Assembly (NCBI GenBank): GCA_041649675.1
Contig: JBAZMQ010000004.1
Span: 16,338-80,337, forward strand
From: Patescibacteria group bacterium
Lineage (GTDB): Bacteria; Patescibacteriota; Patescibacteriia; Buchananbacterales; UBA6539
Reading direction: 5' to 3'
Length of the DNA: 64,000 nucleotides
Within the stretch, counting starts at the first letter, position 1. Every line of letters begins with the position of its first letter. Both the position numbers and the translations under genes were made by a program. Positions 1 through 34,585 of the stretch are shown in pieces. The notes under the pieces are model-generated. The model was not told the origin of the DNA. It searched no databases and worked only from the letters and a program-made list of their open reading frames with translations.

Positions 1-25
1 CAATGGAAAAATAAAAATTCAGATA

Positions 26-3000
26 GTGGCTAGCGGCGATTTAATCAGCGGTACAGCTTGGTTTGATGCTTTTTCCGTTACTAATAGCTGCGTTACTAAT
101 CCAATTACTTTAAATTTAATTGGGACTATAGATCAAGATGAAAGCAAATTACATTTAGATCGTAATGCTCAAAGTTGTCCGGCCCAAGCCGCTGGTTGTT
201 CTGAATTTATCCGAACCAAAAATAATTTAGGCAGCAACATTGTTCCTAATGCTAGTTTTGAAACCTGGTCTAGTGACATTGCCCAAAGAGGTTGGCAGGG
301 AGATTCAATTAGCCAACTGAGCAACGACGCTAATAATACTACCAATGCAATAGTGGGAAATTCCAGTTTGGTTATTAGTCCTCTTGGCAGTGTCCAAACT
401 GATAGTTTGGTAGCAGTTGCTCCGGCCACTAATTACTATGTATCTTTTTGGGCCAAAGCGCCTAATGCGACTGATGGTGTATCGGTCAGCAATTTTGTTA
501 AATTAAAATGGAAGCAAGGTACTGCCAATAAAGAAGCTGACCTTACTTTTTATCAAGATCCGGATGTTAATCTCAATACTAATTGGCGTCGATTTGTTTC
601 TGACGCCACCACCACTTCTGCTGCCGGCACTAGTTTTGCCCTTGCCTTTGATAACTCAACATCAGAAACCATATATTTAGACGGTGTCCAAATGGAGGCA
701 ATTGGTTACCAAGGTGATTATTCGGCTTATAAGGATTATGGCCTTGTTAATTTAACTTACCTGAAAAAACCGCCGGCTTCCTTTGGCTGCAGTGGTGATT
801 ATCAAAATGATCCAGGCTTATGTAATAACTATGCTTTGTATTGCCGAGCCGATGAAGTGGGGTGCGAAAGTTATACACCGCTTGATAAAAGTGGCCCGGC
901 CGTCCCCGGCGTGGCGGCTTTGGATGATTATTGTCCAGCCGAGTGCGTTGGTTACAATGCTTATAAACAATCAACAACATTTTTTGAAAGCCAAGAATCA
1001 ATAGAATATTTTATTCCTAAAACCGCTGCTCAATGTTCAGCCAGTGAAGAAGGTTGTGATGAATTTACCAATCTGGACAAGGTTTCTCAGGGTGGCGAGG
1101 CTAAAGAGTATTATCAGTACTTGCGTTTATGCAAAAAACCGACCGAGCCGGGGGCAATTTGTCAAAATTATTACACTTGGCAAGGTTCAGGTGAAACTGG
1201 TTATCAGTTAAAAGTTTACAATCTTTCCGCGGCCGCCGAGGGACCGCAAGAGGTTATTCCTTATAATGGTCCGGCTGATACTAATTGGCCTGATTATTGG
1301 TGTGATGACAAAACAATGGGCCAGAACAATCGACCAGTTTGTTGCGATGGCCAAGAAGATATAGCTAGCAATCCTTTCTGCAAGCAGCTGTATTCGGCGG
1401 ATGGTAAAATTTATTATCGGCTTTATCCCAACACTATTACTTGCTCTGATAGCTGTTTGGCTTACAGAAAATCTCGTTTAGGTGAATCAGAAGCAGCGGC
1501 AATGGATAATTGTTCTGGCACTCATGGTACTTGGGATCCGGCCAGCACGGCCTGTGTCTATCAGGCAATTCCCCAGGAAGGGATTGCTTGTTCGGCTCAA
1601 GCGGCTGGTTGTCGTCAGTACCGCGGTAATGCTGGCGGTAATGTTTATACGGCCTACTTTAATGATCTTGAAACTGGTACTTCCAGCGGTTGGCGTTATG
1701 GTTCAATTGACACCGAAGCGTTAGTGGTCGGTGGCCATTCTTTAAAGAGTCATTTAATTGCTAGCGATAACAGAACTATTGTAGAAACAACCAGCGGCCA
1801 TTTAAATAATGGTCCTTGTACCGACAATATTATTAAATATCAGGCGTGCGATGCGGCAAATCCAAATGACTATAATTGTTATGATTCGTCAAGCGGTAAA
1901 TGTATTGCTAAAGATTCCCAAACTACAGACACTTGCAAAGTTGAGCCGCTGGCTGAAGATTGCAGTTTGATAAGCAGCCAAATGACCGAGGGTAAAACTT
2001 ATCTGATTTCGTTTTGGGCCAAGAGTGATTCGGCAACCATAATCAGCAACGCCCAGGTTCAGATGGCAACCACCACCGGTACGACGGTTAAAACTACTGT
2101 GATTGGCACTACCAATATTAAACCGGAATGGAATTACTATAGTTTTGGCCCATTTGTTTATACTGGTGGCGACTATCCGGCTCAATTGACTGCCCAATTA
2201 ATTATCACCACTCCAAATGGAATTAGTACCCAATTTTATGTTGATAATATTAGAATTCAGGAAATAAATAGTTACAGCTACGTAATCAAAGGTTCCTGGA
2301 CGACCCCGGCGAGTTGCGATACTAATCCGTTTGTTAGTCCGGCTGTGGCCGCGCCGCAATTTATGCTTGGTTGTAAACAATACACTGATTTTTATAAACG
2401 GGTTCATAATTTGAAATCATTTAATCATTTATGCCGGGAGCAGGCCGCTGGCTGCGAAGCTTTAATTGATACTTATAATTATTCATCGCCTTTTGGCCAA
2501 AGTTTCAATGTCGCTGACCCAATCGCTCAGGTTAGAATCCCATCTGATCAGATTATTTACATGGTTAACCGGCCAACCTATCAGTGTGATGCCCAATATA
2601 AAGGTTGTCAGTCTTTAGGCCAACCGGCTATTAACAATGAAGATGAAATTTCTAGCTACCAGACGGTCTATCGAGTTAATAATCCGGATAACTATAGTTC
2701 AATCCTTTGTACTAGCGAGCAAGTCGGTTGTGACGAATTTCAAACCGGCAATGGTTTTGCCTACTTTAAAAATCCGGGGTCAAAGACTTGCGAATATAAG
2801 CCAATCCCGAATCAAAATACTTATGGTTGGTTTAAAACCAATTCAACAGCCAGCACACCTGATTGTCCGTTGGTTTCCCCGCCATTAGGAGTACCCCATC
2901 CAGGACAGACTTTTGCCGGTACTTGTTCGGATGAGTATAGTACTTGTACCCAATTTATTGATCCGACTACCGAATATGGTAAAAGTATTGTCTCAAACGG

Positions 3001-6000
3001 TGATTTGCAGCGCGATATAGATGATAATAAATTGCCCGATGATTGGAATATTTGTCAGTCGGCGGCCAATCCGAATGCTTTTTGCGCTAACTATCAAAGT
3101 GTATCGCTGAGACATGATAAACTTTATACTTTAACTGTTATTGGTACTGATGCTGCCAATGATAGTGATCGGCTTTGGTATAATACCGGCCAGCCTTTTA
3201 TTGAAATCAGTAATTGTCCGGCCATTACCTCTTTTGATCATTCAATGGTCAGAGTTTGTACCGATGCCGGTGGTTCGTTGGTTTTAAATGCTGGTAATTT
3301 GCCTACAGTCTGTACAGCCAACAGTGATTGTCCTGGTGGTCAAATTTGTAATGGCAATGTTTTAGTATTGCCTTGGGCTAAAGATAGTCGTAGTGCTGAC
3401 AATACGCCGAATTTACCTAATAGCAGGCAGTACTCCGGTCGTTTCTTTGTGCCGGAAAGGGATGAAATTTGTAGATTAGTTGTTCATACCAATTTATCAT
3501 TCCGGATTGATCAAACTGGAGCTTCTAATTACATCAATAAATATGTTAAAGAAATCAGGTTAGTCCCCACCGATGTTAGCTATGTTCTTAGTGACTCTGT
3601 TGATAAATTAAGTTGTAATGCGATTGTTAATCATGAGAATGGTTGTGTTTTGTTCAATGATCGCAGCAGTGTTAATTATAAGATTGGTGAAGATGATACA
3701 AGTTATTTAAATTTTGATGCCAATGTCAGTGGCCCAACCATTAACAACGGTATTGCCGTTAATCAATGTGCCGGCGTTTGCAATTCTAATGTTGTTTTGA
3801 AAGTTACACCTGACCGGATTTGTAATTCTTGGCTTTATTGTAGCAGCTATGCCACTTTTCCCGGCAGCGGCAGCCAGGGTGAGCGCAATGATTGTACCAG
3901 CATTGGTTTGTGCGATTCTTTGGATGACAACGGTAATTGCAGCGACTTTATTGCGCCCAAGAAAGAAGGTGCTCGCCAGGACTATTACCGTTCCCTTGAA
4001 GAGATCAGGGATTTGAGCGGCTACGTTAAGGCTGGATTAGATTTCACTCAACAATTGGCTAATGCCAAAATTCAAACTGATTTGCCAAAAATTATCCAAG
4101 GTGATTATCCTTATTCGGAAATGGTTCAAAAAGGCGGTATTGTATTCTCGCCTGGCACTAATTTTGAAAATGAGTTATCAAATTCGCTTAAGCCGTTTGG
4201 TTGGAATTTGAGATACCCGTTATTAACTGAACCGCCGGCTCAAAGTTTTTCAACTGCCGTTTGGCTCTTGACTTACTCTAAATTAATTGACAGTCCAATT
4301 GCCGCTCAAAAAGAAGGATTGGATTCTTCCGCTCCTGAAGGCTCAAAGTTTCTTAAACTTAGCGGTCCATACGTTGTTAATTCGGAAGAAATTGATGTGT
4401 TTGGTAGTTCCGAATACATTATGTCAGCCTTTATGAATACCAAAAATTTGCTTAAAGGTAGTGCCATAGTGGCCGTTGAACAATTTAATGATGAAGGAGC
4501 ATCATTAGGAATTAACCATGTATTAAACTTAGGGCGTTCAAGCGATTGGGTTTTTAGAGAAAACAGCTTTAGGACTAACTCGGCGACAACAAGAATAAAA
4601 ATTATTTTAAGTAATTGGGGACCAACTAGCCGAAGTGGTCATAATCCTTGGACTGGTGATACGGCCGACGTTATTCATGATGTTGTCGGTAGTTCTTATT
4701 TTGACGACATTAAAATAAAGCCGAATTTGCAGGTTGGCAATAACGCTTATGTTCCGCCAAGTTGCCGGGTTTATCCAGCGGCTGACTCTTTGAGTTGTGA
4801 TTATGTCACTTCGGACAATTTGCGTTTACGTGGCTGGCTTGGTTATTGCATTGAAACTGATCCGGCTAATCCGCAACAATGTTTGAATTGGTGGCCAATA
4901 GAATTAATTAATGGCGGCTTTGTTGATGAGCAGCCATTCATTACCCAAACGCCGCTTTACTATTGTTTAAAGGCTAAAGAAAATTTTTACGGTTTGCAAG
5001 CTTGTTTATTTAGAACAGATAGCACCCGTTGCGCTTCGGTCGGTGCCGGTGCTACGGGCGCCCCATCGCCAAGAATTTTTAATTGGGCAGTACCAACTGC
5101 TTGGCAGCTGGAAAGATGGCAAATTGTTAAATTAAGAATGATTACCTCGACTGCTGGTTGTCAAACCGAAGCTTGCGGCGGCGCCTTTACTCAGGTAAAC
5201 TTTTTACCTGATCCTAAAGGTAAAGACTCTACGCTTTTTATTAATGGTTCTAAGGGTTGGCAAGCCCATCTTAAATTTGGTACTAATAATAGGTTAGAAA
5301 GTATTGATTTCAATATCGGCGGATCAAATTGTATTTGTCCAGATGCTGATATTACAATTGAAGCCAGGAAGGAATGGTGTCAGATTCTGGTTCAAACCGT
5401 TACGCCTTTTGGTCAAAGCCGACCTTGGTGGAGCCGGATTTCCAATAACAGCGGTTCGACTTATACTGTCCCAGGCCTAAACTATCTTTATAATTTTGAT
5501 ATCGCGCCATACGGTGCGGTGGTACCGTCTTTGCCGGTAGAAAATCCAGCCGCCTGGAATTCAAGTTCTTATGCCGGGGTTGGACCACTGTGGGTGGCTT
5601 CGCCTGACCGGATTAATTTTAATACTCCGTTTCAAGCCAGGGCGGGAATTCCTTATTCTTGCGATCAAACTTCTGCCAAATATGGCAGCTTCAATTGTGC
5701 TTATCCGCCTCAGAGCACTGGTATTGCCAATAAAATTAACAATAAATCCGACCAGCTAGTGACCGCCGAGGTTAAAGGTATGGATAATTTAAAGCGGCTT
5801 TTTGTCCGTAATTATGGCAGTTGGCAGTATCAAGGTGACGGAGTTTGCAAAGATGTGGTAACCAATGAAATTGTAACTCAGGACGGTCGGGAAATCAGCT
5901 GTGCTTGTCCGGAAAGTTCCTGCAATGCCGAAACCAATAATTTTAAAATTTGCGGTTATGTTGACGAAGATGCTTTAGACAGAGGTTTTCCGGGTGTTTG

Positions 6001-7915
6001 CGATAATTGTGAGTCGGCCCCGGCCAACTGCGGCTGGTGTTATAGCGACAGTGACTGTCAGCCGAAAAATGGCGTAGCTGGCAAATGTGATTATACCCTT
6101 GGCCTTTGCCAAAAAGCCGACGACAGTTACAATACTCAAAAGAATTGCTCAGTTGAATATGTTTGTCCGCTCGAAGAAGGTGGCTCTTGTGCGGTTGAAA
6201 AATGTTTGATTGATGGTGCTACTTGTCCAAGCGATGGTAAATGTCTTGACGGTGCTAAATGTGACCCATTGCCTAAGTGTAGTAACGCTGGCGGAAGTGA
6301 TTATTGTTATGCCCAACCGGCAGACAATCAGTGCGGTAACAATGAAAAATGTATCTTGCCGGCTAATTCAGATGAAGTTTTATCCGCTATGGGCAGAGAA
6401 GATCCAACCGGGCAATCATGTGAAATTGGATTTTTCGGTTGTGACATTGATTTATTTGACCTTTTCTTTTCTACTGGCGCATCGGTGATGGAAATGTTTG
6501 TCGGTGCAGTCACGCTGCCAATTGCTATCTTAACTGCTGTTTTGAACTTTGCTATTCAAAAAATTACCAGTTGCCGGCCCCAGGGCTGCAGCGGTCAAGG
6601 TGCAAATTGTGGCGGTGCCGGCAATTGTATTACCTATTTGCATTACTTTCTCTATAAAACAACAATCATGTCTAATGATGAATGGAACTGGTTAGACGAT
6701 GTTCTCAGTGTAATACCTGATTCAACATTAGAGAATATGTCCGGTAGCGTTGAAGGATCCTCCGATGGGTCTAACTCAAACGTTATTTCATCTTTGCTTT
6801 CATCGTTAAATATATTTTCCGGCTCCTCCGGCGCCCAAATTGAGGATTTGCTAGAAGGTCTAACCGAACAAATTGGCATCGGTGGTGTCTTGGGTTTATT
6901 TACCCTTTTTAAGCTTAATTTGAATGATACCTATTGTTCCGGTTCGGACAATGCCTGCCAAACTGGCCCGGATGAGGGCCGGAGTTGTTGCCCGTTTTAT
7001 GCGCCAACCTGTGGTGAAAGTACTAGTATTATTGGTCGATGTTCTGATGGTCCAAACAAGGATTTATCTTGTAAACCGGCTCAAGAAGGTGGTGACCGCG
7101 GTGATGAGTGTCCGACTGGTTCTGTTTGTAAAGTGCGGTCTAATAATGAAACCTATCGGTCGGTTGATGCTTACCATTGGGCTGAACCGAGTTCAATCTG
7201 TCTTAATCCGGCAACTCCCGGTACTGACAATAAACGCTTGAATATCTTTAAGTGTGTTGGTGGCGCCAGCAATGGTGAAATTTGTGCTGGACCGGAAAAT
7301 TGTCCAGACGGCTCTTGTATTCAACAAAATGATTCTTACTGTGCAGTGGCACCAGAAGTTTCTTCAATTAAGATTAATAACCAAAATTTGGGTGATGTTA
7401 AAATCTATGGTGGCGATTACGTTAAAATGGTATTTACTACTGATATTGATTCACAGCAATTACCATTAAACGGTTACATCGTTGATTGGGGTGATGGTAA
7501 AAAAGATGCTGTTTCCGGCCAAGCTTTGCGTAGCCATCCGGACAAAACTAATCCGTTTGACGTTAGCCATTTGTATTCTTTCTGGGATTTACAGCAAGCC
7601 GCTCGGGACGGGGTTTTAAAGTGCGTGGGCCATCCGATTACGGCTGGCGGAACTGATTGTTGCAATGAGCAAGAATGTCACGTCGTGCCCAAGATTCAAA
7701 TCCGGGATAATTGGAATTGGTGTAATGGTAACTTAAGATGTGGCGGTGTTTTAGAAGGCACTCCTTGCAATGATGATAATACTTGCGGCAGTAGCCAATG
7801 TTTGCCGGTTGATAATCAATGGGGGTATAAAGGTAATACTTGTGATACTAATAGTAACGCCTGGCAGTATTATAATGGCGTAATTACTGTTTATCCTTAT
7901 TACAGTAAATTTTAA
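26..7915 (+). CDS. Giant cysteine-rich secreted/surface protein (2629 aa in window; probably 5'-truncated by the window edge). It has two CBM4_9-like carbohydrate-binding modules, a repeated C.(A/E)QAAGC motif, a Cys-rich C-terminal region and C-terminal hydrophobic segments.
   Basis: Single uninterrupted 7.9-kb ORF with no in-frame stop back to nt 2. CBM4_9-like motif 'NYYVSFWAKAP...ETIYLDGVQMEAIG' and second copy 'GKTYLISFWAKSD...QFYVDNIRIQE'. 'CPAQAAGC', 'CSAQAAGC' and 'CREQAAGC'. Hydrophobic stretch 'MFVGAVTLPIAILTAVLNFAI' near aa 2150. Confidence 0.7.
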   Translation: MASGDLISGTAWFDAFSVTNSCVTNPITLNLIGTIDQDESKLHLDRNAQSCPAQAAGCSEFIRTKNNLGSNIVPNASFETWSSDIAQRGWQGDSISQLSNDANNTTNAIVGNSSLVISPLGSVQTDSLVAVAPATNYYVSFWAKAPNATDGVSVSNFVKLKWKQGTANKEADLTFYQDPDVNLNTNWRRFVSDATTTSAAGTSFALAFDNSTSETIYLDGVQMEAIGYQGDYSAYKDYGLVNLTYLKKPPASFGCSGDYQNDPGLCNNYALYCRADEVGCESYTPLDKSGPAVPGVAALDDYCPAECVGYNAYKQSTTFFESQESIEYFIPKTAAQCSASEEGCDEFTNLDKVSQGGEAKEYYQYLRLCKKPTEPGAICQNYYTWQGSGETGYQLKVYNLSAAAEGPQEVIPYNGPADTNWPDYWCDDKTMGQNNRPVCCDGQEDIASNPFCKQLYSADGKIYYRLYPNTITCSDSCLAYRKSRLGESEAAAMDNCSGTHGTWDPASTACVYQAIPQEGIACSAQAAGCRQYRGNAGGNVYTAYFNDLETGTSSGWRYGSIDTEALVVGGHSLKSHLIASDNRTIVETTSGHLNNGPCTDNIIKYQACDAANPNDYNCYDSSSGKCIAKDSQTTDTCKVEPLAEDCSLISSQMTEGKTYLISFWAKSDSATIISNAQVQMATTTGTTVKTTVIGTTNIKPEWNYYSFGPFVYTGGDYPAQLTAQLIITTPNGISTQFYVDNIRIQEINSYSYVIKGSWTTPASCDTNPFVSPAVAAPQFMLGCKQYTDFYKRVHNLKSFNHLCREQAAGCEALIDTYNYSSPFGQSFNVADPIAQVRIPSDQIIYMVNRPTYQCDAQYKGCQSLGQPAINNEDEISSYQTVYRVNNPDNYSSILCTSEQVGCDEFQTGNGFAYFKNPGSKTCEYKPIPNQNTYGWFKTNSTASTPDCPLVSPPLGVPHPGQTFAGTCSDEYSTCTQFIDPTTEYGKSIVSNGDLQRDIDDNKLPDDWNICQSAANPNAFCANYQSVSLRHDKLYTLTVIGTDAANDSDRLWYNTGQPFIEISNCPAITSFDHSMVRVCTDAGGSLVLNAGNLPTVCTANSDCPGGQICNGNVLVLPWAKDSRSADNTPNLPNSRQYSGRFFVPERDEICRLVVHTNLSFRIDQTGASNYINKYVKEIRLVPTDVSYVLSDSVDKLSCNAIVNHENGCVLFNDRSSVNYKIGEDDTSYLNFDANVSGPTINNGIAVNQCAGVCNSNVVLKVTPDRICNSWLYCSSYATFPGSGSQGERNDCTSIGLCDSLDDNGNCSDFIAPKKEGARQDYYRSLEEIRDLSGYVKAGLDFTQQLANAKIQTDLPKIIQGDYPYSEMVQKGGIVFSPGTNFENELSNSLKPFGWNLRYPLLTEPPAQSFSTAVWLLTYSKLIDSPIAAQKEGLDSSAPEGSKFLKLSGPYVVNSEEIDVFGSSEYIMSAFMNTKNLLKGSAIVAVEQFNDEGASLGINHVLNLGRSSDWVFRENSFRTNSATTRIKIILSNWGPTSRSGHNPWTGDTADVIHDVVGSSYFDDIKIKPNLQVGNNAYVPPSCRVYPAADSLSCDYVTSDNLRLRGWLGYCIETDPANPQQCLNWWPIELINGGFVDEQPFITQTPLYYCLKAKENFYGLQACLFRTDSTRCASVGAGATGAPSPRIFNWAVPTAWQLERWQIVKLRMITSTAGCQTEACGGAFTQVNFLPDPKGKDSTLFINGSKGWQAHLKFGTNNRLESIDFNIGGSNCICPDADITIEARKEWCQILVQTVTPFGQSRPWWSRISNNSGSTYTVPGLNYLYNFDIAPYGAVVPSLPVENPAAWNSSSYAGVGPLWVASPDRINFNTPFQARAGIPYSCDQTSAKYGSFNCAYPPQSTGIANKINNKSDQLVTAEVKGMDNLKRLFVRNYGSWQYQGDGVCKDVVTNEIVTQDGREISCACPESSCNAETNNFKICGYVDEDALDRGFPGVCDNCESAPANCGWCYSDSDCQPKNGVAGKCDYTLGLCQKADDSYNTQKNCSVEYVCPLEEGGSCAVEKCLIDGATCPSDGKCLDGAKCDPLPKCSNAGGSDYCYAQPADNQCGNNEKCILPANSDEVLSAMGREDPTGQSCEIGFFGCDIDLFDLFFSTGASVMEMFVGAVTLPIAILTAVLNFAIQKITSCRPQGCSGQGANCGGAGNCITYLHYFLYKTTIMSNDEWNWLDDVLSVIPDSTLENMSGSVEGSSDGSNSNVISSLLSSLNIFSGSSGAQIEDLLEGLTEQIGIGGVLGLFTLFKLNLNDTYCSGSDNACQTGPDEGRSCCPFYAPTCGESTSIIGRCSDGPNKDLSCKPAQEGGDRGDECPTGSVCKVRSNNETYRSVDAYHWAEPSSICLNPATPGTDNKRLNIFKCVGGASNGEICAGPENCPDGSCIQQNDSYCAVAPEVSSIKINNQNLGDVKIYGGDYVKMVFTTDIDSQQLPLNGYIVDWGDGKKDAVSGQALRSHPDKTNPFDVSHLYSFWDLQQAARDGVLKCVGHPITAGGTDCCNEQECHVVPKIQIRDNWNWCNGNLRCGGVLEGTPCNDDNTCGSSQCLPVDNQWGYKGNTCDTNSNAWQYYNGVITVYPYYSKF

Positions 7916-7923: not shown

Positions 7924-10900
7924 ATGAAAACGATTCCGCGACAATTTAAATTCAAAAAAACCGTGGTTTTGGTATTCGCAGCAGTTTTACTGTCTTCTGT
8001 TGCTTTTAGTGTTTTGCCGGGCTTAGCTTTGAATTTTCAAACCGCCGACCCACTTGAAAAGACCTTGGCAGTTTTACAGGTAACCCCGGTCAGCGCCGCT
8101 GGTGAGCAAACCGAGTCCAAGGATAACGATACCGATAGTTTTTTTGTCACCGCTGTTGGCTGGGTGGTTGAAAAGGCAGTTACTTTGGAAGGTTTTGTAA
8201 TCACTACTGAAACTAAAATCTTGATTTTTTTCTTAAAATATAATGGTTTTGTTAAAGCCAAGGCCGTGGTAATCGGTTGGACTTTAGTAAGGGATGTTTC
8301 TAATTTATTTTTTGTTTTGGTTTTATTGGTTATTGCCCTGGCCACAATTTTAAGGATTGAAGCTTACAATTTCAAGCGGTTATTGCCAAAAATTTTGCTG
8401 ATGGCGGTTTTAATTAATTTCAGCCGTTTAATTTGTGGCTTTATCATTGATTTTGCCCAGGTGATAATGATGAGTTTTGTTGCGGCCTTTGTTAAAATTG
8501 GAACCGGTGGTAATTTGTACGCTGTTTTGCATATCAATGACATTCTATATAGTACTTATGATGTCCAGACTAAGGCTAATACTGAGCAGGGAATTAGTCC
8601 TACGGCCATAGTGGTCAGCGGAATTTTGGCAGTTTTCTTGTTACTGGTTGCTTGTATTGTAATTTTTACCATGATGACTGTGATTATCATGAGAATGATT
8701 ATGCTTTGGATGCTGGTGGTGCTTTCACCGTTACCTTATATTCTTTCAGCCATTCCTAAAGCTGAGCGGTATGCTCAGCAATGGTGGCAGGAATTTAGCA
8801 AATATGTCATTGTTGGTCCAATTTTGGCGTTTTTCCTTTGGCTGACTTTTGCGGTTGCTTCCACTGACCGAGAGGGTTCAATTGGCGGTGAACAAATTGG
8901 CTTGGGTGCAACCGGTTTAGATTCACTAAAAACTTCTTTAGAAACAACTGATAAGGATACAAGCGGCCAAACCAATCAGCCAATAACCGAGGAAGATAAT
9001 AACGGAATTTTTACCGGGATTGGCCAAGTGGAAAATATGCTGTCCTTGATTATCGGGATTGGCATGCTAATGGCCGGTTTAATGATTACTCAGCAGCTGG
9101 GCGTGGCTGGCGGCCAAATGGGCGGAGCGGCAATGTCAAAAATGAAAAGCTTAGGCACCTCATCGCTTAGAAGTGTAGGCGGACTTATTGGCACAGGAGC
9201 CAAGACCTTAGGCAAAGCGCCTTTTCAATATATCGGTAGAAAAGTTAATGAAGCAGTTTATGACGATAGGTTACCAGCCTGGGTCAATCCGGCAGCAATG
9301 TATCGGGGTTGGGTGGCTCGACGCGAGGCTTTGTATACCAAGGCTAAAGAAGGTGCCGCTCTAGGTGGCCAAGAAATGTTTGAAAAAGCATTTACCGGCG
9401 TGGCTCAGCCTCGGCGGTTACAGATGAAAATAGCCGATTCACAAAAATACGCTTCGGAATATTTATTTTTACCAAAAGAAAAATTGGCCAACTATGCCGC
9501 TAATTTATACAAGCAATATCAAACCCATAAGACGCCGGAAATGCGAGCTAAGCTAAGAGGGGTGGCTCAAACTGCCTTTAGAAACGGGTTTGAAGATGAT
9601 GTAATGGATCAAGAGATTTTTCGTAATATGGCGCCAATTGATCCCAGAACCAATATGCCTCTCCACTTAGAAAAGGAACATTATGAGAAAGTGTGGCATA
9701 ACATTTTAGGTGATCATGAGGCCGGTGCATATACGGCCGCAACCGGTGACGAAATAGCTCATGCCACTAAACATTTTGGTGTGGCTGGATTAACTCAAGC
9801 TAACAACGTAACAGGTGATATTGCTTGGAATGATTATGATGAAAAAACTGGCAGATTTGAATGGGAAGAAATCGGGCCGGATGGCCGAAGTTATTTAAAA
9901 AAAGACGCCAATAAAGAAATCAAAAGAGCCAAAGAAGGGGGTAGGGTAGAACTAGCTGAAGCAATTAAAGAAGTTGGGCGAAATAGAAGTTCTTTTCATT
10001 ATCAGGGTATAACTGGAGTCCAAGATCGCAAGGATGCTAAGGGTGAAAAAATGAGAATTGCGGCGCCCTTTAGTGAATTAACAATGGATATGTTAAATTT
10101 ACAATTTAAAGGTCAGAGAGAAATTTTTCTTGGCGAACATTTTAATAGTAGAACTGCCATAGCTTTAGCCGGTGGAAAAATTGGTGACAGCACTTGTGAA
10201 TTTGAAGACAATGGCCTTACTCAAGTTTTGGCTGGTGGGGAGTATGCACCTCATCTATTAAGGAATATAGCCCTATTGGATGCTATTGAACCTTGGTTGG
10301 CTGTAGGTATGATTAAAAAAGTTGGCGGCAGCGAGACTGCCAAGCCAGAGAGTATAAAATATCGCACTGGTGATTGGGTTATGCCATTGCTAAGTTTACG
10401 TATAGCTAGGGACAGTGGTTTATTAGAAAAAATTCATAAGGAAACGGATCAAACTAAAAAAGAGCAGATGGAGCAGGATATGTTTAAACAATACGCTACA
10501 TATTCACCTCGGGCAGCTCAAGCCGCTGGTGCTCCTGGGCCGCAACCGTCACCTACTCCTGGCCCAACGCCTGGTGCTCTTGGGCCGCAACCGTCACCTA
10601 CGGCCGGTCCGTCTCCTGTGCCTTATTCAAGAATGGCCCAGGACTTTGATAGAGAAAAATTTGTCCGGACTAATCAAGCAGTTCATAGGTATGACAATGC
10701 CAATGACTTTTATAAATCTGATGAATACAAAAATGATCAGAATAAATATGAATCAGCGGTTGAGTATGCCAGGCACCGCGACGCTTTAAATCAAAAAGAA
10801 TTGGATCGGGTGAGGGGAACCAAAACTGCATCTACCACTAAAGCCGGTGCGCTGCAAGCCGGAGCTGGTATCAATTTCAGCGACCCTGAGTTACAAAAAG

Positions 10901-11781
10901 CTTATGGCGTTAATTCAGCCATGGATGCGGCATATTTTGAAGGAGAAAATAAAGATAAGGTTATTGAAATGCTTGCCGCTCAGTACTCTCATGATTTGGA
11001 AGCCCAAGGAATGGCGGTTGAAAAGATAAATGAACAAGTTGAGAAATTCAAGCAAGGTTTAAGAAATGCTAAAACTTTGCGGCTTCACAATAATGCCAGT
11101 TTAACTAGCCGGCTAGACCAGGCTCTTCATGAAAAAGCTCACGCTCAAACTATGGGTTTGGCTGATGAACAGTTAAATCAATTCTGGCAGTCACTCAGCA
11201 CAGACCAGCAGCAGCAGATTGAAACTGATATTAAATCAAAATATGGTAATAATATTGCTAGTAAACAAATGAAGCAGGAAGCAATCGCGGAAATGGCCGG
11301 GGTTGGCAAAGGAATTTATGCTCCAAGTGATAAGACTAAAGAAGTTCTAACCGGCTTAAACGTCAAAACTAGACCACAAGCCCAAGAAGATATTTCAAAG
11401 TTAGCACCAGTAGCTCAAAAAGATGTAGAAAAGGAAGGTGAAGAGCTCAAAAAAGCGGTTGCTGGATTTGACGACACCGCCATAGTTCAAGCTTTAGCTG
11501 GGATTGAAGGTATATTGGCTAACGTTGCTTCAACTTTGGATAAAATGCCAAAATCACCGGTTGAAAGCGGGGTCAAAGCTGATTTAAATAGATTGCTTGG
11601 TCAAGTTAGGGATCATCAGTCTGGTGCCGGTGGTGTTTTAGATCCTGGTTCAGTCAGCGGCTTACTGGCCAGTATAAATACTAATTTGAAATCTATTAAT
11701 GAACAATCAAAAAAAGAAAAACCATCGGGAACAGGTGAAGGAAAAATTCCGCCGATGCCGCCGAAGTTAAATAGAAAATAA
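7924..11781 (+). CDS. VirB6/TrbL-like polytopic membrane protein with a long hydrophilic C-terminal extension (1285 aa)
   Basis: N-terminal signal-like segment, then 5-7 TM helices (aa ~110-330) in an arrangement typical of VirB6/TrbL. A ~950-aa charged, coiled-coil-like tail carries the Pro-rich tandem repeat 'GPQPSPT(P/A)GP'. It lies immediately upstream of the VirB3/VirB4-like genes. Confidence 0.45.
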   Translation: MKTIPRQFKFKKTVVLVFAAVLLSSVAFSVLPGLALNFQTADPLEKTLAVLQVTPVSAAGEQTESKDNDTDSFFVTAVGWVVEKAVTLEGFVITTETKILIFFLKYNGFVKAKAVVIGWTLVRDVSNLFFVLVLLVIALATILRIEAYNFKRLLPKILLMAVLINFSRLICGFIIDFAQVIMMSFVAAFVKIGTGGNLYAVLHINDILYSTYDVQTKANTEQGISPTAIVVSGILAVFLLLVACIVIFTMMTVIIMRMIMLWMLVVLSPLPYILSAIPKAERYAQQWWQEFSKYVIVGPILAFFLWLTFAVASTDREGSIGGEQIGLGATGLDSLKTSLETTDKDTSGQTNQPITEEDNNGIFTGIGQVENMLSLIIGIGMLMAGLMITQQLGVAGGQMGGAAMSKMKSLGTSSLRSVGGLIGTGAKTLGKAPFQYIGRKVNEAVYDDRLPAWVNPAAMYRGWVARREALYTKAKEGAALGGQEMFEKAFTGVAQPRRLQMKIADSQKYASEYLFLPKEKLANYAANLYKQYQTHKTPEMRAKLRGVAQTAFRNGFEDDVMDQEIFRNMAPIDPRTNMPLHLEKEHYEKVWHNILGDHEAGAYTAATGDEIAHATKHFGVAGLTQANNVTGDIAWNDYDEKTGRFEWEEIGPDGRSYLKKDANKEIKRAKEGGRVELAEAIKEVGRNRSSFHYQGITGVQDRKDAKGEKMRIAAPFSELTMDMLNLQFKGQREIFLGEHFNSRTAIALAGGKIGDSTCEFEDNGLTQVLAGGEYAPHLLRNIALLDAIEPWLAVGMIKKVGGSETAKPESIKYRTGDWVMPLLSLRIARDSGLLEKIHKETDQTKKEQMEQDMFKQYATYSPRAAQAAGAPGPQPSPTPGPTPGALGPQPSPTAGPSPVPYSRMAQDFDREKFVRTNQAVHRYDNANDFYKSDEYKNDQNKYESAVEYARHRDALNQKELDRVRGTKTASTTKAGALQAGAGINFSDPELQKAYGVNSAMDAAYFEGENKDKVIEMLAAQYSHDLEAQGMAVEKINEQVEKFKQGLRNAKTLRLHNNASLTSRLDQALHEKAHAQTMGLADEQLNQFWQSLSTDQQQQIETDIKSKYGNNIASKQMKQEAIAEMAGVGKGIYAPSDKTKEVLTGLNVKTRPQAQEDISKLAPVAQKDVEKEGEELKKAVAGFDDTAIVQALAGIEGILANVASTLDKMPKSPVESGVKADLNRLLGQVRDHQSGAGGVLDPGSVSGLLASINTNLKSINEQSKKEKPSGTGEGKIPPMPPKLNRK
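10533..10599 (+). repeat. In-frame tandem direct repeat (period ~45 nt) that encodes the Pro-rich linker inside the VirB6-like gene
   Basis: 'ctgggccgcaaccgtcacctac' occurs twice (10533-10554 and 10578-10599). It translates to 'PGPQPSPTPGPTPGALGPQPSPTAGP'. Confidence 0.7.
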
Positions 11782-11796: not shown

Positions 11797-13053
11797 ATGT
11801 TTGATCCAAGACTAGAAAAAATTCATACCATTAAAGCTGAAGATTTAGCTAATCTTGATGTTTTCACCCAAATTAATTCAGCGGCCAATGAATATATTAA
11901 TGGTTTTTACGTTGGTGAATCCTTGGAGCTCTGGTTGGTTTTAAGCCAGTTATTAAAAGGCAAGATATTATCAGATATGCCTGTAGAATTGGCTGATAAG
12001 TACAAAAGTATTTTATTGAAACTAGCTTGGACCTGTATTTCCGTTTTACCCCAGGGAGAGGCGGAAGAATTGTTTAAATCCCAGCTCCTTTTGGGGTTAA
12101 GTTTAGAGATTGATTTGATTAATGGTGTGAAAGGATTTACTGAATATCCCTATGGCGAAGAAACCGGCCAAGAGAAGAAAAGAAAACTGGTTTTGGCCTC
12201 ATTAAAAGATAATGAAGAGCAGTTTGGCAATCGCAATTTAAAGATTGAAGGCGTGACGGGTGATTTTAAGCCGTTAATTAAAAATTGGTTAAAAGATTAC
12301 GATCAATCTACGGAAACGGAAAAGCGCAAAGGCAGATTGAGTTTTTTGGAATATATTAATACAAGTAAAAATGTTCGGCAGTTGGATAATTCACAAAAAG
12401 ATATTTTAAAACAGATATTGGAAGTTTATGATTTTTTACGTTTTACTGTCACTGCCCCCGAGGTTCCGTTAACCGGCCATCAGTTACCCAGCCAGCAAAT
12501 CGGAATTTCGTCAGCCACGCCATTCTTGCCAACAGAGTCTTTAGCCTTAGAAAAAGTTGAATCTAGCGCCCAACAGGATATTATAAAGGCTTATCAAGGT
12601 GATCCAAAAGCGCAAAGCGCAATTGCTAAAGCTGAAGAAAAATTAGTCAAATTGGTTAAAGAGGATAAGGGTAGGTTGAGGGCAGAATTTTTTGCCGCAG
12701 TTCAAAAAAAGGATGTCAATATGACGATTGCGGCTTTTAGGCTTTTAGCCCAGAAAGACGATATTAGTAATTTTTTGCAAGAGGACGTCAAACTAAATAA
12801 GTTTTTAACCTCAGTTTGGGTCAAGCAGTATGGCGCTGATTTTGTCAAAGAATTTAATCAAAATCCCGGCGAATTGAAGTTTGTTCGGTTATTTTTAAGG
12901 TATGTTTTGCAAGACAGGCTGGGCCTGGCCCAAAATGACGCGGCCAGAGTTGGTTTACAAATTGGTAATATCCTGGTTAATTTAGGAAAAAAAGGTTATA
13001 ATAAAATGGCATATTTTGACATTAAAAAGAAACAGTTTGAATGGTTGGAATAG
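11797..13053 (+). CDS. Hypothetical protein (418 aa)
   Basis: ORF with coding-like composition in operon context; no recognisable motifs. Confidence 0.55.
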   Translation: MFDPRLEKIHTIKAEDLANLDVFTQINSAANEYINGFYVGESLELWLVLSQLLKGKILSDMPVELADKYKSILLKLAWTCISVLPQGEAEELFKSQLLLGLSLEIDLINGVKGFTEYPYGEETGQEKKRKLVLASLKDNEEQFGNRNLKIEGVTGDFKPLIKNWLKDYDQSTETEKRKGRLSFLEYINTSKNVRQLDNSQKDILKQILEVYDFLRFTVTAPEVPLTGHQLPSQQIGISSATPFLPTESLALEKVESSAQQDIIKAYQGDPKAQSAIAKAEEKLVKLVKEDKGRLRAEFFAAVQKKDVNMTIAAFRLLAQKDDISNFLQEDVKLNKFLTSVWVKQYGADFVKEFNQNPGELKFVRLFLRYVLQDRLGLAQNDAARVGLQIGNILVNLGKKGYNKMAYFDIKKKQFEWLE

Positions 13054-14401: not shown

Positions 14402-15580
14402 ATGGCAGTTAATGATAATAAAAAAACCGATGATTTTTTTAGTGCCCTCGCTCAAGAGCAGCAAATTGAAAATCCATTTGCCACTGAAGAAATACTTTTT
14501 CGCGATGAAAATGGTGTTTTGAAGATTTTGAAGGGCGGGCAGGTTTTGGATTATACCCAAAATGGCGAGCAAAAAGATCAAACTGCTGCCCCGCTTCAGC
14601 CTGAGCCACTACCAGTTTTGCCAAAGCCAGAAGTCGTACCGTCGCCACCACTCAGTCAGCCAGTTTTGCCACCAATTCCTGTTGTGGAACCCATCCCAGC
14701 CCCAGCGCCGGTTACACCCAGTGAGCCATTAGGTCAGCCGCTGAACTTAGACGAAGAAATAGAGATGGTGATTAAAAAATCAGGCATTCATTTTACTGAT
14801 CAGCAGTTAGCTAAACGTTTCACCAGCATCATTACTTCCAGGCTTAAGCACATTCGCGATCAAGTCCAAACCAAAGAAGCACTTTTGAGTTCGCCCACGG
14901 CGGGTGGAATGGGATTTACTTCGGTCCAGGCCGATCGGATAATGCTTGCGATTAATCAAGTTCTGGATCAATTGAGTAATAAGCTAAGACAAGGAGTAAG
15001 CCAGGAACCATTTTCTGATTTACAACAGGAGGTCCAAAAGCTTTTAGCCCAACAGCCACTGGTTTCATCACCGCCAAAAATTGTTTTCTCCGCCCCAGCT
15101 AAGCCAGTTGAACCGGCAAAAGTTACACCAATTAAACCAGTAGCGGTTGAAAAACCGCAGCCAGTAGCCGCTCCCAAGCCACCTGCGTTACCTCAAATGC
15201 CAGCTGCCAATACTTTTACCAAGCCAAAAATTGAAGATGTTAGGTTTGAGCCAAAATTAACCGGGCCAATTGAAGAAATCCATTCCATGACTTTGATTGA
15301 TTTTCGTCGCTTAGGTTCCACGCCTCAGCAGGCAATTGAAAAGATTATTGAAAAAATTGATTTATTGGAAGAGGAATCATTTACTAAAAAAACCCAGGCA
15401 ATAAAGGCCTGGAAAGAAAATGAAGTTTACCGTCTTTATTTAGCCTTGGGCGATCAAAGCATGGAAGAAAGAAAGCCGATTGCTGAAATAATTGAAGAAA
15501 AACAAAAAGCAAATCAGCCCACCTTGACCTCTCAAGAAGTAGAAGCAATAATTGAATTAAATCAAAAATTAAGATATTAA
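14402..15580 (+). CDS. Proline-rich hypothetical protein (392 aa)
   Basis: ORF with long P/V/E-rich low-complexity tracts ('PLQPEPLPVLPKPEVVPSPPLSQPVLPPIPVVEPIPAPAPV'). No catalytic motifs. Confidence 0.55.
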   Translation: MAVNDNKKTDDFFSALAQEQQIENPFATEEILFRDENGVLKILKGGQVLDYTQNGEQKDQTAAPLQPEPLPVLPKPEVVPSPPLSQPVLPPIPVVEPIPAPAPVTPSEPLGQPLNLDEEIEMVIKKSGIHFTDQQLAKRFTSIITSRLKHIRDQVQTKEALLSSPTAGGMGFTSVQADRIMLAINQVLDQLSNKLRQGVSQEPFSDLQQEVQKLLAQQPLVSSPPKIVFSAPAKPVEPAKVTPIKPVAVEKPQPVAAPKPPALPQMPAANTFTKPKIEDVRFEPKLTGPIEEIHSMTLIDFRRLGSTPQQAIEKIIEKIDLLEEESFTKKTQAIKAWKENEVYRLYLALGDQSMEERKPIAEIIEEKQKANQPTLTSQEVEAIIELNQKLRY

Positions 15581-16761: not shown

Positions 16762-16762
16762 T

Positions 16763-34573: not shown

Positions 34574-34585
34574 GTTATTTCCAAT

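What the first reader, a model, noticed from the sequence alone, without database searches (positions are those of the whole stretch)
26..7915. Giant (>2600 aa) cysteine-rich surface protein with CBM4_9-like carbohydrate-binding modules and a repeated C.QAAGC motif, directly upstream of a T4SS-like operon
- **What the sequence shows.** A single 7.9-kb ORF, open to the window start, so the true protein is larger.
- **CBM4_9-like modules.** Two segments match the CBM4_9 / galactose-binding-like jelly-roll pattern G.TY.(V/I)S.W.K ... (I/F)Y(L/V)D(G/N)(V/I). They are 'NYYVSFWAKAP...ETIYLDGVQMEAIG' and 'GKTYLISFWAKSD...QFYVDNIRIQE'.
- **Repeated motif.** C(P/S/R)(A/E)QAAGC occurs three times (~aa 50, 520 and 800), which suggests ancient internal duplication.
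- **C-terminal region.** The last ~600 aa are extremely Cys-rich (EGF/laminin-like spacing) and contain two hydrophobic segments.
- **Interpretation.** Giant carbohydrate-binding proteins adjacent to secretion machinery are candidate host-attachment or secreted-effector proteins in episymbiotic small-genome bacteria (inference).
Basis: partly seen in the sequence, partly recalled or inferred. Interest (0 to 1): 0.6.

Follow-up and report, generated by a model that had tools for sequence, protein, structure and literature searches.

The report
Giant lectin-like protein heading CPR T4SS
The ORF is the last 2,637 residues of a 3,580-residue exported protein with five carbohydrate-binding-like modules, from a large family confined to one branch of ultrasmall (CPR/Patescibacteria) bacteria and almost always encoded directly in front of their type IV secretion genes, which makes it a candidate host-attachment part of that machine.

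Summary
The ORF (2..7915, +) is open at the window start. It is 100% identical to the C-terminal 2,637 aa of a 3,580-aa NCBI MAG protein from a Patescibacterium.

- **Jelly-roll modules.** Both 'FWAK' segments are CBM4/9/22-like jelly rolls. One passes Pfam CBM_4_9. The other is supported only by profile and predicted-fold evidence. There are five such modules in all, alternating with conserved disulfide-rich linkers.
- **Repeated motif.** CxxQAAGC occurs three times. It is a subset of about ten C-x6-C-x2-aromatic/Leu loops.
- **Cys-rich tail.** The 'EGF/laminin-like' label is not supported. That tail is a lineage-specific insert.
- **T4SS link.** The next gene, 8 nt downstream, is VirB6/TrbL-like, and PrgI-TrsD-VirB4 follow.
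  - A VirB6-like homolog lies directly downstream in 61 of 63 related species loci.
  - PrgI/TrsD/VirB4 lie within 10 kb in 36 of 48 loci.
- **Family size.** The N-terminal domain profile finds 1,156 clusters (50% identity) at E ≤ 1e-30.

Best reading (inferred, ~0.5): a Sec-exported surface protein that binds host envelope glycans and works with the Patescibacterial T4SS. I found no published description of this family. Function is untested.

The parts
2..7915 (+). C-terminal 2,637 codons plus stop of a 3,580-aa giant protein. The gene starts upstream of the window.
   Evidence: No stop codon before base 26. 100% identical to P0001, 'hypothetical protein WC508_02205 [Patescibacteria group bacterium]'.
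2..127 (+). End of jelly-roll module M0 (P0001 aa 805-985), cut by the window start.
   Evidence: hhalign M0 vs M1 98.6% probability and M0 vs M4 98.5%. Weak CBM_4_9_1 hit, E = 0.068.
176..199 (+). CPAQAAGC loop, motif copy 1 (window aa 59-66), just before module M1.
200..742 (+). Module M1, the first 'FWAK' segment (NYYVSFWAKAP...IYLDGVQME): a CBM4/9/22-like beta jelly roll.
   Evidence: Pfam CBM_4_9 only 15 bits, E = 0.033. hhalign to M2 99.1%, E = 2e-18. Family profile vs PDB: CBM22 4xup E = 1.6e-6. AF2 pLDDT 70-92 and Foldseek CBM22/CBM4/CBM16 hits.
740..1612 (+). Linker domain L1: conserved and disulfide-rich, with 15 invariant Cys, containing several C-x6-C loops.
   Evidence: Found in 119 of 119 homologs. 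Invariant Cys listed in alignment A2. 53-75% identity to close relatives against 27-52% for M1. The AF2 model is poor here.
1589..1612 (+). CSAQAAGC loop, motif copy 2 (aa 530-537), just before module M2. The two Cys and one Ala are invariant in the family alignment.
1610..2272 (+). Module M2, the second 'FWAK' segment. It contains a large Cys-containing insertion and matches Pfam CBM_4_9.
   Evidence: PF02018 at 32.2 bits against a gathering score of 25.9, aa 620-723. AF2 pLDDT 75-93 and Foldseek CBM22 match.
2270..3052 (+). Linker domain L2: conserved, with four C-x6-C loops including CREQAAGC (motif copy 3 at 2432-2455).
   Evidence: Found in 119 of 119 homologs. hhalign L1 vs L2 80% probability, E = 1.4e-5. 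Loop positions.
3035..3577 (+). Module M3: the most variable jelly-roll-like module.
   Evidence: hhalign M1 vs M3 95.3% over 72 columns. 20-50% identity to close relatives.
3560..4177 (+). Linker domain L3, conserved.
   Evidence: Found in 119 of 119 homologs.
4160..4852 (+). Module M4, jelly-roll-like (…SSYFDDIKIKP).
   Evidence: hhalign M0 vs M4 98.5% and M1 vs M4 97.5%. Found in 117 of 119 homologs.
4850..5872 (+). Region C1: partly conserved, fold unknown.
   Evidence: No Pfam hit.
5870..7222 (+). Lineage-specific Cys-rich insert with hydrophobic segments at 6476-6562 (strong) and about 6869-6922 (weak).
   Evidence: Covered by 11 or fewer of 119 homologs. 6-17% identity to relatives. No EGF/laminin or other Pfam hit at E ≤ 10. 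Hydropathy.
7220..7912 (+). Conserved C-terminal module (…LPL.GY.VDWGDG…NPF…H.Y…DNWNWCN…).
   Evidence: Alignment A1. It retrieved 143 species loci. No PKD or other Pfam or PDB sequence match.
7924..11781 (+). VirB6/TrbL-like polytopic membrane protein (1,285 aa), 8 nt after the giant gene.
   Evidence: Signal/TM segment plus 5-6 TM segments at aa 125-390. 14 of 60 family members hit Pfam TrbL/VirB6, best E = 4.5e-7; the window copy itself does not. Directly downstream of the giant gene in 61 of 63 loci.
11797..13053 (+). Conserved 418-aa cluster protein, no family match.
14402..15580 (+). Conserved 392-aa protein that immediately precedes PrgI in most loci.
15626..16084 (+). PrgI (VirB3-like) membrane protein.
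   Evidence: PF12666 at 37.9 bits against a gathering score of 27.
16081..16761 (+). TrsD / VirB4-N-terminal-like protein.
   Evidence: NCBIfam TrsD E = 2.4e-8 and VirB4_plasma E = 8.9e-12, both below their cut-offs. Annotated PF26593 TraC-like in homologous loci.
16751..18685 (+). VirB4-like T4SS ATPase.
   Evidence: NCBIfam conju_CD1110 at 359.8 bits against a cut-off of 325. Pfam P-loop_TraG E = 1.7e-30.
18709..19308 (+). TM-anchored 199-aa protein conserved after VirB4. It may be VirB8-like, but this was not tested.

Best explanation
**What it is (shown).** The ORF encodes most of a 3,580-aa exported protein of an ABY1-type (Buchananbacteria-related) Patescibacterium. In order, the protein has:
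- a Sec-type signal or anchor;
- a highly conserved, mostly helical N-domain of about 570 aa with unknown fold;
- five CBM4/9/22-like beta-jelly-roll modules, alternating with conserved disulfide-rich linker domains that carry repeated C-x6-C-x2-aromatic loops;
- a lineage-specific Cys-rich insert;
- a conserved C-terminal module.

Its gene sits at the head of the conserved Patescibacterial (Gram-positive-like) T4SS cluster. The VirB6-like channel gene follows immediately, then PrgI/VirB3, TrsD and VirB4.

**How it most likely works (inferred).**
- The protein is exported by Sec and folded with disulfides outside the cell.
- It is held at the T4SS site, possibly through the conserved N-domain.
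- It extends as a long, stiff multi-lectin fibre.
- Its fast-evolving jelly-roll modules bind glycans of the host cell envelope. That would give host recognition and adhesion for the T4SS.

This would fill the adhesin role for which the published survey of Patescibacterial T4SSs reported no detected homologue (no PrgB-type adhesin).
For: - **Real gene and large family.** The window ORF is 100% identical to a 3,580-aa NCBI protein. More than 200 homologs of 2,000-3,900 aa were found, and every named one is Patescibacterial. The N-domain profile finds 1,156 clusters at 50% identity with E ≤ 1e-30, always near the N-terminus of giant proteins. The C-terminal module was found in 143 GTDB species, with titles naming Buchanan-, Falkow-, Uhr-, Jackson-, Kerfeld- and Magasanikbacteria.
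- **Export.** A hydrophobic N-terminal segment is present in 109 of 120 homologs. The N-termini look like Sec signals with AxA-type ends. Cys content is 4.3%, and the invariant alignment columns in L1 are mostly Cys.
- **Lectin-like modules.** Pfam CBM_4_9 is above threshold for M2. hhalign M1-M2 gives 99.1%, M0-M1 98.6% and M0-M4 98.5%. The profile matches solved CBM22, CBM4-2 and CBM16 chains. The AF2 model matches tandem CBM22 4xup at E = 1e-8, and CBM16 and CBM22 single domains at TM 0.73.
- **Variable modules on a conserved scaffold.** Linkers are 53-75% identical to close relatives and modules only 20-52%. Some homologs carry Laminin_G_3, Sialidase or Toxin_R_bind_N hits instead.
- **T4SS linkage.**
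  - The gap to the next gene is 8 nt, and all genes are co-directional with short gaps or overlaps.
  - The downstream gene is VirB6/TrbL-like.
  - It lies directly downstream in 61 of 63 loci, and PrgI/TrsD/VirB4 lie within 10 kb on the same strand in 36 of 48 loci. Five of seven metagenome loci show the same order.
  - VirB4 passes the NCBIfam conju_CD1110 cut-off.
- **Literature.** The Patescibacterial T4SS is Gram-positive-like, essential in a Saccharibacterium, of unknown function, and 'no adhesins, such as PrgB, were detected' (PMC12102498; PMC10633639).
Against: - No experiment or direct computation shows surface location, carbohydrate binding or contact with the T4SS.
- Gene order upstream (ksgA, Sua5, leuS, uvrA) is also conserved in these genomes. 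Part of the synteny may therefore reflect general collinearity rather than function.
- metK sits inside the cluster in this lineage.
- In 12 of 48 loci no PrgI/TrsD/VirB4 was found within 10 kb, and one locus (L006) has no T4SS genes nearby.
- The window's own VirB6-like protein does not reach any Pfam threshold. Only 14 of 60 relatives match.
- The N-domain could be an unrecognised enzyme. Its AF2 model was unusable, with pLDDT 42.
- No LPxTG or other known wall anchor is present, so how the protein is retained on the cell is unknown.
- The experimentally studied Saccharibacterial T4SS cluster has no such giant gene.
Confidence: 0.5

Rival explanations
1. It is a general envelope or surface-layer scaffold protein, or an adhesin that works independently of the T4SS. 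On this view it sits beside the T4SS genes only because gene order is broadly conserved in these small genomes.
For: Housekeeping genes upstream (ksgA, Sua5, leuS, uvrA) are syntenic too. metK is embedded in the cluster. Locus L006 has the giant gene without nearby T4SS genes. Giant surface proteins not linked to a T4SS are reported in other CPR bacteria (PMC8080830).
Against: Adjacency to the VirB6-like gene holds in 61 of 63 loci across lineages only 25-45% identical, while the intervening and flanking genes vary. The gap to that gene is 8 nt.
Confidence: 0.22
2. It is a targeted envelope-degrading enzyme. The conserved N-domain would be an unrecognised hydrolase, for example a functional stand-in for VirB1 or a host-wall lysin, and the CBM-like modules would direct it to polysaccharide. 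This is how CBM4/9/22 modules are used in glycoside hydrolases.
For: CBM4/9/22 modules are typically appended to glycoside hydrolases, as in the top structural matches (xylanases, laminarinase, hyaluronate lyase). VirB1 homologues are mostly not associated with virB4 in Patescibacteria, and other glycosidases may substitute (PMC12102498). The N-domain is the most conserved part of the protein and has invariant D/E residues.
Against: No catalytic family was detected by Pfam, NCBIfam or PDB sequence-profile searches. The N-domain model is mostly helical with low confidence. Five binding modules and long disulfide-rich linkers fit an adhesin fibre better than an enzyme.
Confidence: 0.15
3. It is a toxin or effector protein translocated into the host by the neighbouring T4SS.
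For: Proximity to T4SS genes. Foldseek also lists jelly-roll domains of Cry, Vip3 and binary toxins among weaker matches.
Against: It carries an N-terminal Sec-type signal and many conserved cysteines, which point to Sec export and extracellular disulfide folding. The toxin matches involve only their receptor-binding jelly rolls.
Confidence: 0.03
4. It is an assembly artefact or pseudogene, that is, fused ORFs.
For: None beyond its unusual length. Raw reads were not available.
Against: The frame is open for 7.9 kb. Domain order is collinear in 120 homologs of 2,000-3,900 aa from independent assemblies. 143 species carry the C-terminal module.
Confidence: 0.01

Closest known systems
CBM22 / CBM4 / CBM16 carbohydrate-binding modules of glycoside hydrolases (e.g. 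Paenibacillus barcinonensis Xyn10C tandem CBM22, PDB 4XUP; Rhodothermus marinus CBM4-2, 1K42 and 4BJ0; CBM16, 2ZEY)
   Same: The modules share the beta-jelly-roll fold and sequence-profile similarity (Pfam CBM_4_9 for M2; profile E = 1.6e-6 and Foldseek E = 1e-8). The tandem arrangement is also shared.
   Different: No catalytic domain is attached. The modules are interleaved with conserved Cys-rich linkers in a 3,580-aa protein. Ligand binding is untested. Sequence identity to the solved structures is only 7-21%.
Surface adhesins of Gram-positive conjugative T4SSs (e.g. PrgB of pCF10)
   Same: It is proposed to work in the same way: a large, Sec-exported surface protein encoded with an MPF-FATA-type T4SS that mediates cell-cell contact. 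This is an inference.
   Different: No sequence homology was found. There is no LPxTG anchor in any of 120 homologs. The domain content differs. The published survey found no PrgB homologues in Patescibacteria (PMC12102498).
Patescibacterial T4SS gene cluster (Quinonero-Coronel et al. 2025, PMC12102498; S. epibionticum SEML1_0006-0019, PMC10633639)
   Same: The window has the same core: PrgI/VirB3, TrsD, VirB4 and a VirB6-like gene, with no relaxase nearby.
   Different: Neither paper's searched text or supplementary tables describe the giant CBM-like gene. The Saccharibacterial cluster has pilin arrays and no protein longer than about 1,100 aa.
Giant surface proteins of episymbiotic or predatory ultrasmall bacteria (Vampirococcus lugosii, PMC8080830; Omnitrophota giant genes next to T2SS/T4P-like systems, bioRxiv 10.1101/2023.11.21.568195)
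   Same: These are also very large, membrane- or surface-predicted proteins with binding domains, some CBM-like, encoded near secretion or pilus systems and proposed to mediate host or prey contact.
   Different: This is a different protein family and phylum-level lineage. The associated machine differs (VirB4/VirB6 T4SS rather than T2SS/T4P-like). The size is 2-4 kaa, whereas the Omnitrophota giant proteins studied in that preprint are far larger.

Membership tests
Pfam CBM_4_9 (PF02018) | HMM score at or above the gathering threshold (25.9 bits) | tested here: met
   M2 (window aa 620-723) scores 32.2 bits, E = 1.6e-7. It scores 29.4 bits when scanned as an isolated segment.
Pfam CBM_4_9 (PF02018) | The same threshold applied to the first 'FWAK' segment (M1) | tested here: not met
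   15.0 bits, E = 0.033. Homology is still supported indirectly: hhalign M1-M2 99.1%, E = 2e-18, and profile vs solved CBM22/CBM4/CBM16 chains E = 1.6e-6 to 5e-4.
CBM4/9/22-type beta jelly roll (galactose-binding-like fold) | Beta-sandwich jelly-roll fold that superposes on solved CBMs | tested here: met
   In the AF2 model, M1 and M2 have pLDDT 70-93. Foldseek gives 4xup E = 1.2e-8, and single-domain TM-scores of 0.64-0.73 for 4xup_C/E, 2zey and 4bj0. This rests on a predicted, not solved, structure.
CBM4/9/22-type beta jelly roll (galactose-binding-like fold) | Demonstrable carbohydrate binding | not testable with these tools
   Needs glycan arrays or ITC with recombinant modules.
   Zero Pfam families at E ≤ 10 for the two tail segments (proteins 8 and 9). 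Only one C-x-C spacing is present; the dominant gaps are 4-6 and 9 residues.
PKD domain (my own first impression of the C-terminal WGDG module) | Match to PKD HMMs or to solved PKD sequences | tested here: not met
   One of 22 members hit PKD_4, at E = 0.042. There were no PDB sequence-profile hits at E ≤ 5.
Patescibacterial MPF-FATA-like T4SS gene cluster | VirB4 ATPase present | tested here: met
   16751-18685: NCBIfam conju_CD1110 at 359.8 bits against a cut-off of 325.
Patescibacterial MPF-FATA-like T4SS gene cluster | VirB3/PrgI, TrsD and VirB6-like partners close to virB4 | tested here: met
   PrgI PF12666 at 37.9 bits against a gathering score of 27. TrsD and VirB4-N hits are below their cut-offs. 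VirB6/TrbL is supported at family level (14 of 60 members, best E = 4.5e-7) plus 5-6 TM segments.
Patescibacterial MPF-FATA-like T4SS gene cluster | The giant gene is a conserved, co-directional member of the cluster | tested here: met
   8-nt gap to the VirB6-like gene. Adjacent in 61 of 63 loci, and PrgI/TrsD/VirB4 within 10 kb in 36 of 48 loci. Caveat: flanking housekeeping genes are also syntenic.
Patescibacterial MPF-FATA-like T4SS gene cluster | Physical or functional participation in the secretion machine | not testable with these tools
   Needs co-purification, cryo-ET or genetics.
PrgB-type / sortase-anchored Gram-positive adhesins | C-terminal LPxTG sorting signal and homologous adhesin domains | tested here: not met
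   No LPxTG in the last 60 aa of any of 120 homologs. No adhesin-family Pfam or NCBIfam hits.

The most novel reading that the evidence does not exclude
The giant protein is not just an accessory adhesin but an integral extracellular structural part of the ABY1 T4SS. On this reading it is a disulfide-stiffened protein bridge or conduit. Its conserved N-domain docks on the VirB6-like channel. In some lineages, including this one, its distal end carries hydrophobic segments that insert into the host membrane. It would thereby replace the pilin arrays used by Saccharibacteria and Microgenomatia.
Probability: 0.1. Interest if true: 0.85.

Novelty: new variant of a known kind. Interest (0 to 1): 0.58.

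Why it matters
The T4SS is widespread in Patescibacteria and essential in the one species tested. Its function and the way it contacts the host are unknown, and no adhesin component has been reported (PMC12102498, PMC10633639, PMC11665869).

This family offers a concrete candidate. It is large, restricted to this lineage, exported and lectin-like. In most loci examined it is encoded directly in front of the VirB6-like gene at the head of the T4SS cluster. That makes it a testable candidate for the host-recognition element in the ABY1 branch.

Its variable jelly-roll modules could act as markers of host range. The same variability gives a handle for predicting or fishing for hosts of uncultured CPR bacteria.

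Tried and rejected
- **N-domain structure.** AlphaFold of the conserved N-domain with a 12-sequence alignment gave mean pLDDT 42. It was unusable, so I ran no fold search on it.
- **N-domain sequence searches.** phmmer and profile searches of the full protein and the N-domain against PDB sequences gave nothing.
- **C-terminal module.** I first took it for a PKD domain because of its WGDG motif. HMM and PDB profile tests did not support that.
- **Tail label.** The EGF/laminin label for the tail failed.
- **Exact-sequence lookup.** P0001 returned no contig, so the upstream neighbours of this particular gene were inferred from homologous loci.
- **Window VirB6-like protein.** Pfam on it alone gave no TrbL hit. 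Only the family-wide scan did.
- **Promoters and terminators.** The scan of 7-21 kb found no more sites than shuffled sequence, so it says nothing about operon structure.
- **Literature.** Searches for a prior description of this family in CPR, Buchananbacteria or Falkowbacteria papers found none. One of these searches used poorly chosen terms.
- **Linker L1.** It was poorly modelled, with pLDDT 23-70, so the structural role of the C-x6-C loops is unresolved.
Full report
**1. The observation**

Frame 2 of the + strand is open from base 2 to the stop at 7913-7915. The database search returned a 100%-identical, 3,580-aa protein, P0001: 'MAG: hypothetical protein WC508_02205 [Patescibacteria group bacterium]', on an 89-kb contig. 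The window therefore holds its last 2,637 residues, and window aa = P0001 aa - 943.

- **Motif.** C..QAAGC is present three times, at window aa 59, 530 and 811. No copy appeared in any of 2,000 shuffles.
- **Cysteine content.** Cys makes up 4.3% of the protein. It peaks at 11-13% in window aa ~1958-2157, and 53 Cys lie in the last 680 aa.
- **Hydrophobic segments.** One strong segment lies at aa ~2159-2187. A weaker one lies at ~2290-2307.

**2. The two 'FWAK' segments**

Pfam finds CBM_4_9 above its gathering score only for the second segment (aa 620-723; 32.2 bits against 25.9). The first reaches 15 bits, E = 0.033, when scanned alone.

Family-level evidence rescues it.
- I used the conserved linkers as anchors to cut out the inter-linker segments of 110-120 homologs. 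I compared their profiles with hhalign:

| Pair | Probability | E-value |
|---|---|---|
| M1 vs M2 | 99.1% | 2e-18 (159 columns) |
| M0 vs M1 | 98.6% | 1.3e-15 |
| M0 vs M4 | 98.5% | 2.4e-15 |
| M1 vs M4 | 97.5% | 7e-12 |
| M1 vs M3 | 95.3% | 2.1e-8 (72 columns) |

- A 17-sequence profile of M1-L1-M2 matched solved CBMs through its M1 part. Hits were CBM22 4xup at E = 1.6e-6, CBM4-2 3jxs and 1k42, and CBM16 2zey and 2zew.
- An AlphaFold2 model of window aa 47-772 gave confident all-beta domains for M1 and M2 (pLDDT 70-93). The linker between them was poorly modelled.
- Foldseek against the PDB matched the tandem CBM22-1-CBM22-2 of Xyn10C at E = 1.2e-8. It also matched single CBM22, CBM16, CBM4-2 and CBM61 domains at TM 0.58-0.73.

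So there are five jelly-roll modules, M0 to M4, not two. The window start cuts through M0.

**3. The motif and internal duplication**

The QAAGC triplet belongs to a larger set of ten C-x6-C-x2-[F/Y/W/L] loops in P0001, eight of them inside the window.
- C-x6-C occurs 16 times, against 4.5 expected by shuffling.
- The loops sit in the N-domain tail and in linkers L1 and L2. Two of the QAAGC copies lie immediately before jelly-roll modules.
- The Cys of these loops are invariant in the family alignment.
- L1 and L2 show modest profile similarity: 80% probability, E = 1.4e-5.

Together with the five homologous modules, this supports ancient internal duplication of a linker-plus-module unit.

**4. 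The Cys-rich tail**

No EGF, laminin or other Pfam family matches the last ~700 aa even at E ≤ 10. The Cys spacing lacks the C-x-C of EGF repeats.

This region (P0001 2900-3350) is covered by 11 or fewer of 119 homologs and is 6-17% identical to relatives. It is a lineage-specific insert. By a crude hydropathy criterion, 20 of 120 homologs have a hydrophobic segment somewhere between M4 and the C-terminal module. I cannot explain these segments.

The last ~230 aa form a conserved module (…DWGDG…DNWGWC…). I first took it for a PKD domain, but neither Pfam nor PDB profile searches support that.

**5. The family**

- More than 200 proteins of 2,000-3,900 aa match. Every named one comes from Patescibacteria (Buchananbacteria, Falkowbacteria and 'Patescibacteria group').
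- Domain order is collinear across 120 of them: N-domain, variable modules, L1, M2, L2, M3, L3, M4, a variable region, then the C-terminal module.
- The most conserved parts are the N-domain (P0001 aa 130-700, outside the window) and the linkers. The jelly rolls are markedly more divergent: 20-52% identity against 53-75% among close relatives.
- Some homologs carry Laminin_G_3, Sialidase or Toxin_R_bind_N hits, which suggests module swapping.
- An exhaustive HMMER search with the N-domain profile found 1,156 clusters at 50% identity with E ≤ 1e-30. The domain was always near the N-terminus of giant proteins or fragments of them.
- A scan of one genome per GTDB species with the C-terminal module found 143 loci. 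The titles name Buchanan-, Falkow-, Uhr-, Jackson-, Kerfeld- and Magasanikbacteria and Parcubacteria. As far as I know (not checked here), these correspond to GTDB class ABY1.
- N-termini look like Sec signals, and no LPxTG anchor is present.
- This breadth and collinearity rule out an assembly artefact for practical purposes.

**6. Genomic context**

All genes from the giant ORF to 20,029 are on the + strand, with short gaps or overlaps:

| Gene | Coordinates | Spacing before it | Evidence |
|---|---|---|---|
| Giant protein | 2-7915 | – | see above |
| 1,285-aa VirB6-like protein | 7924-11781 | 8 nt | see below |
| 418-aa protein | 11797-13053 | 15 nt | no family match |
| metK | 13207-14379 | 153 nt | Pfam |
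| 392-aa protein | 14402-15580 | 22 nt | no family match |
| PrgI / VirB3 | 15626-16084 | 45 nt | PF12666 above threshold |
| TrsD-like | 16081-16761 | overlap | below cut-offs |
| VirB4 | 16751-18685 | overlap | NCBIfam conju_CD1110, 360 bits vs 325 |
| TM-anchored 199-aa protein | 18709-19308 | 23 nt | |
| ComF-like PRTase | 19370-20029 | 61 nt | |

The 1,285-aa protein has a signal/TM segment plus 5-6 TM segments in aa 125-390. It has no Pfam hit of its own, but 14 of 60 relatives hit TrbL/VirB6 (PF04610, best E = 4.5e-7). The giant gene is therefore immediately adjacent to a T4SS channel-type gene.

Synteny is conserved.
- In five of seven metagenome loci of homologs 27-42% identical, the order is: ksgA, a small TSP3-repeat protein, the giant gene, an 880-1,450-aa protein, a 430-510-aa protein, (metK), PrgI, TraC-like, VirB4.
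- Among the 80 species loci, a homolog of the VirB6-like gene lies directly downstream on the same strand in 61 of the 63 loci with at least 2.5 kb of downstream sequence.
- PrgI/TrsD/VirB4 lie within 10 kb in 36 of the 48 loci with at least 9.5 kb downstream. In several of the remaining 12, the cluster appears to run off the fetched flank.

One caveat applies. Upstream housekeeping genes are also syntenic, so some of this reflects general collinearity. The giant/VirB6-like pair, however, stays together where other neighbours change.

**7. Literature**

- A 2025 survey describes the Patescibacterial T4SS as a distinct lineage related to the Gram-positive MPF-FATA class. Its components are VirB4, TrsD, PrgI/VirB3, VirB6 and often VirB2-like pilins, and it usually lacks a relaxase. 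The survey states that no adhesins such as PrgB were detected. It does not mention a giant or carbohydrate-binding protein (PMC12102498).
- In S. epibionticum the T4SS is essential and of unknown function (PMC10633639 and PMC11665869). Its cluster, SEML1_0006-0019, contains pilin arrays and no protein longer than about 1,100 aa.
- Giant surface proteins proposed to mediate host contact are known in other CPR bacteria and in Omnitrophota. In Omnitrophota they lie beside T2SS/T4P-like systems and some contain CBM35-like repeats.
- I found no description of this ABY1 family.

**8. Interpretation**

*Shown:*
- the domain architecture;
- the homology and predicted fold of the modules;
- the size and taxonomic range of the family;
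- the genomic linkage to VirB6-like, PrgI and VirB4 genes.

*Inferred:*
- Sec export and extracellular disulfide folding;
- glycan binding by the modules;
- a role as the host-recognition or adhesion element of the T4SS.

I put about 0.5 on that mechanism. The main rivals are a T4SS-independent surface protein (0.22) and a CBM-targeted enzyme whose catalytic part is the uncharacterised N-domain (0.15). The N-domain could not be modelled (pLDDT 42) and has no detectable relatives of known function. It is the biggest gap in this analysis.

**9. Verdict**

This is a real and partly mis-described feature. The kind is known (a giant lectin-like surface protein beside a secretion system), but the form is new. 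It defines a large family, apparently restricted to Patescibacteria, that heads the T4SS cluster in most ABY1-type genomes examined. It is moderately interesting as a concrete, testable candidate for the missing host-contact component of the Patescibacterial T4SS.

Noticed in passing
window 19370-20029 (+): A ComF-like gene (phosphoribosyltransferase plus double zinc ribbon) closes the T4SS cluster here. It is also found after VirB4 in L003, L004, L007, L040, L053 and L076. ComF proteins act in DNA uptake, so this may bear on whether the Patescibacterial T4SS imports nucleic acid.
   Followed up: partly
window 13207-14379 (+): metK (SAM synthetase) is embedded inside the T4SS cluster, between the 418-aa and 392-aa conserved proteins. 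This occurs in Buchananbacteria-like loci only. Falkowbacteria-like loci lack it.
   Followed up: partly
window 18709-19308 (+): A 199-aa protein with one N-terminal TM helix is conserved directly after VirB4 in at least 14 loci. Its size and topology resemble VirB8/PrgL-type proteins, but no HMM supports this.
   Followed up: partly
L003 9108-9995, L004 9044-9979, L005 8848-9561, L006 9174-9983, L007 9285-9992 (upstream of the giant gene, outside the window): A small protein of 235-311 aa with bacterial TSP3 (thrombospondin type 3, Ca-binding) repeats lies immediately upstream of the giant gene in homologous loci. The window also holds a separate TSP3_bac ORF at 30052-30495 (-).
   Followed up: no
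window 39667-41400 (+) and neighbours, about 36-44 kb: A PilB-like T2SSE ATPase (E = 2e-122) indicates a type IV pilus or T2SS-like cluster about 20 kb from the T4SS cluster.
   Followed up: no
window 44812-50346 (+): A region of low GC (0.33-0.36) and strongly negative AT skew (-0.19 to -0.24) coincides with polytopic membrane glycosyltransferase-like genes (YfhO and TMEM260/PMT_2-like).
   Followed up: no
window 32258-36259 (+): Two adjacent large ORFs (771 and 557 aa) have no Pfam match at E ≤ 0.001.
   Followed up: no
L047 10998-12017: The VirB6-like homolog in this Parcubacteria MAG contains an in-frame stop within the conserved TM region. This may be a pseudogene or a sequencing error.
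   Followed up: no
L011, L012, L016, L019-L022 and others: Many MAG records that encode this Patescibacteria-specific family and T4SS cluster are titled 'uncultured Gammaproteobacteria bacterium' (binchicken co-assemblies). This is almost certainly a placeholder or a mislabel.
   Followed up: no
P0065 and P0109 (homologs): Some family members carry Laminin_G_3, Sialidase or Toxin_R_bind_N Pfam hits in addition to, or instead of, CBM_4_9. This suggests exchange of lectin-type modules on the conserved scaffold.
   Followed up: no
window 6476-6562 and about 6869-6922 (within the giant ORF): TM-like hydrophobic segments lie inside a region that is otherwise Cys-rich and presumably extracellular. 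Similar segments occur between M4 and the C-terminal module in 20 of 120 homologs. Their topology and role are unexplained.
   Followed up: partly
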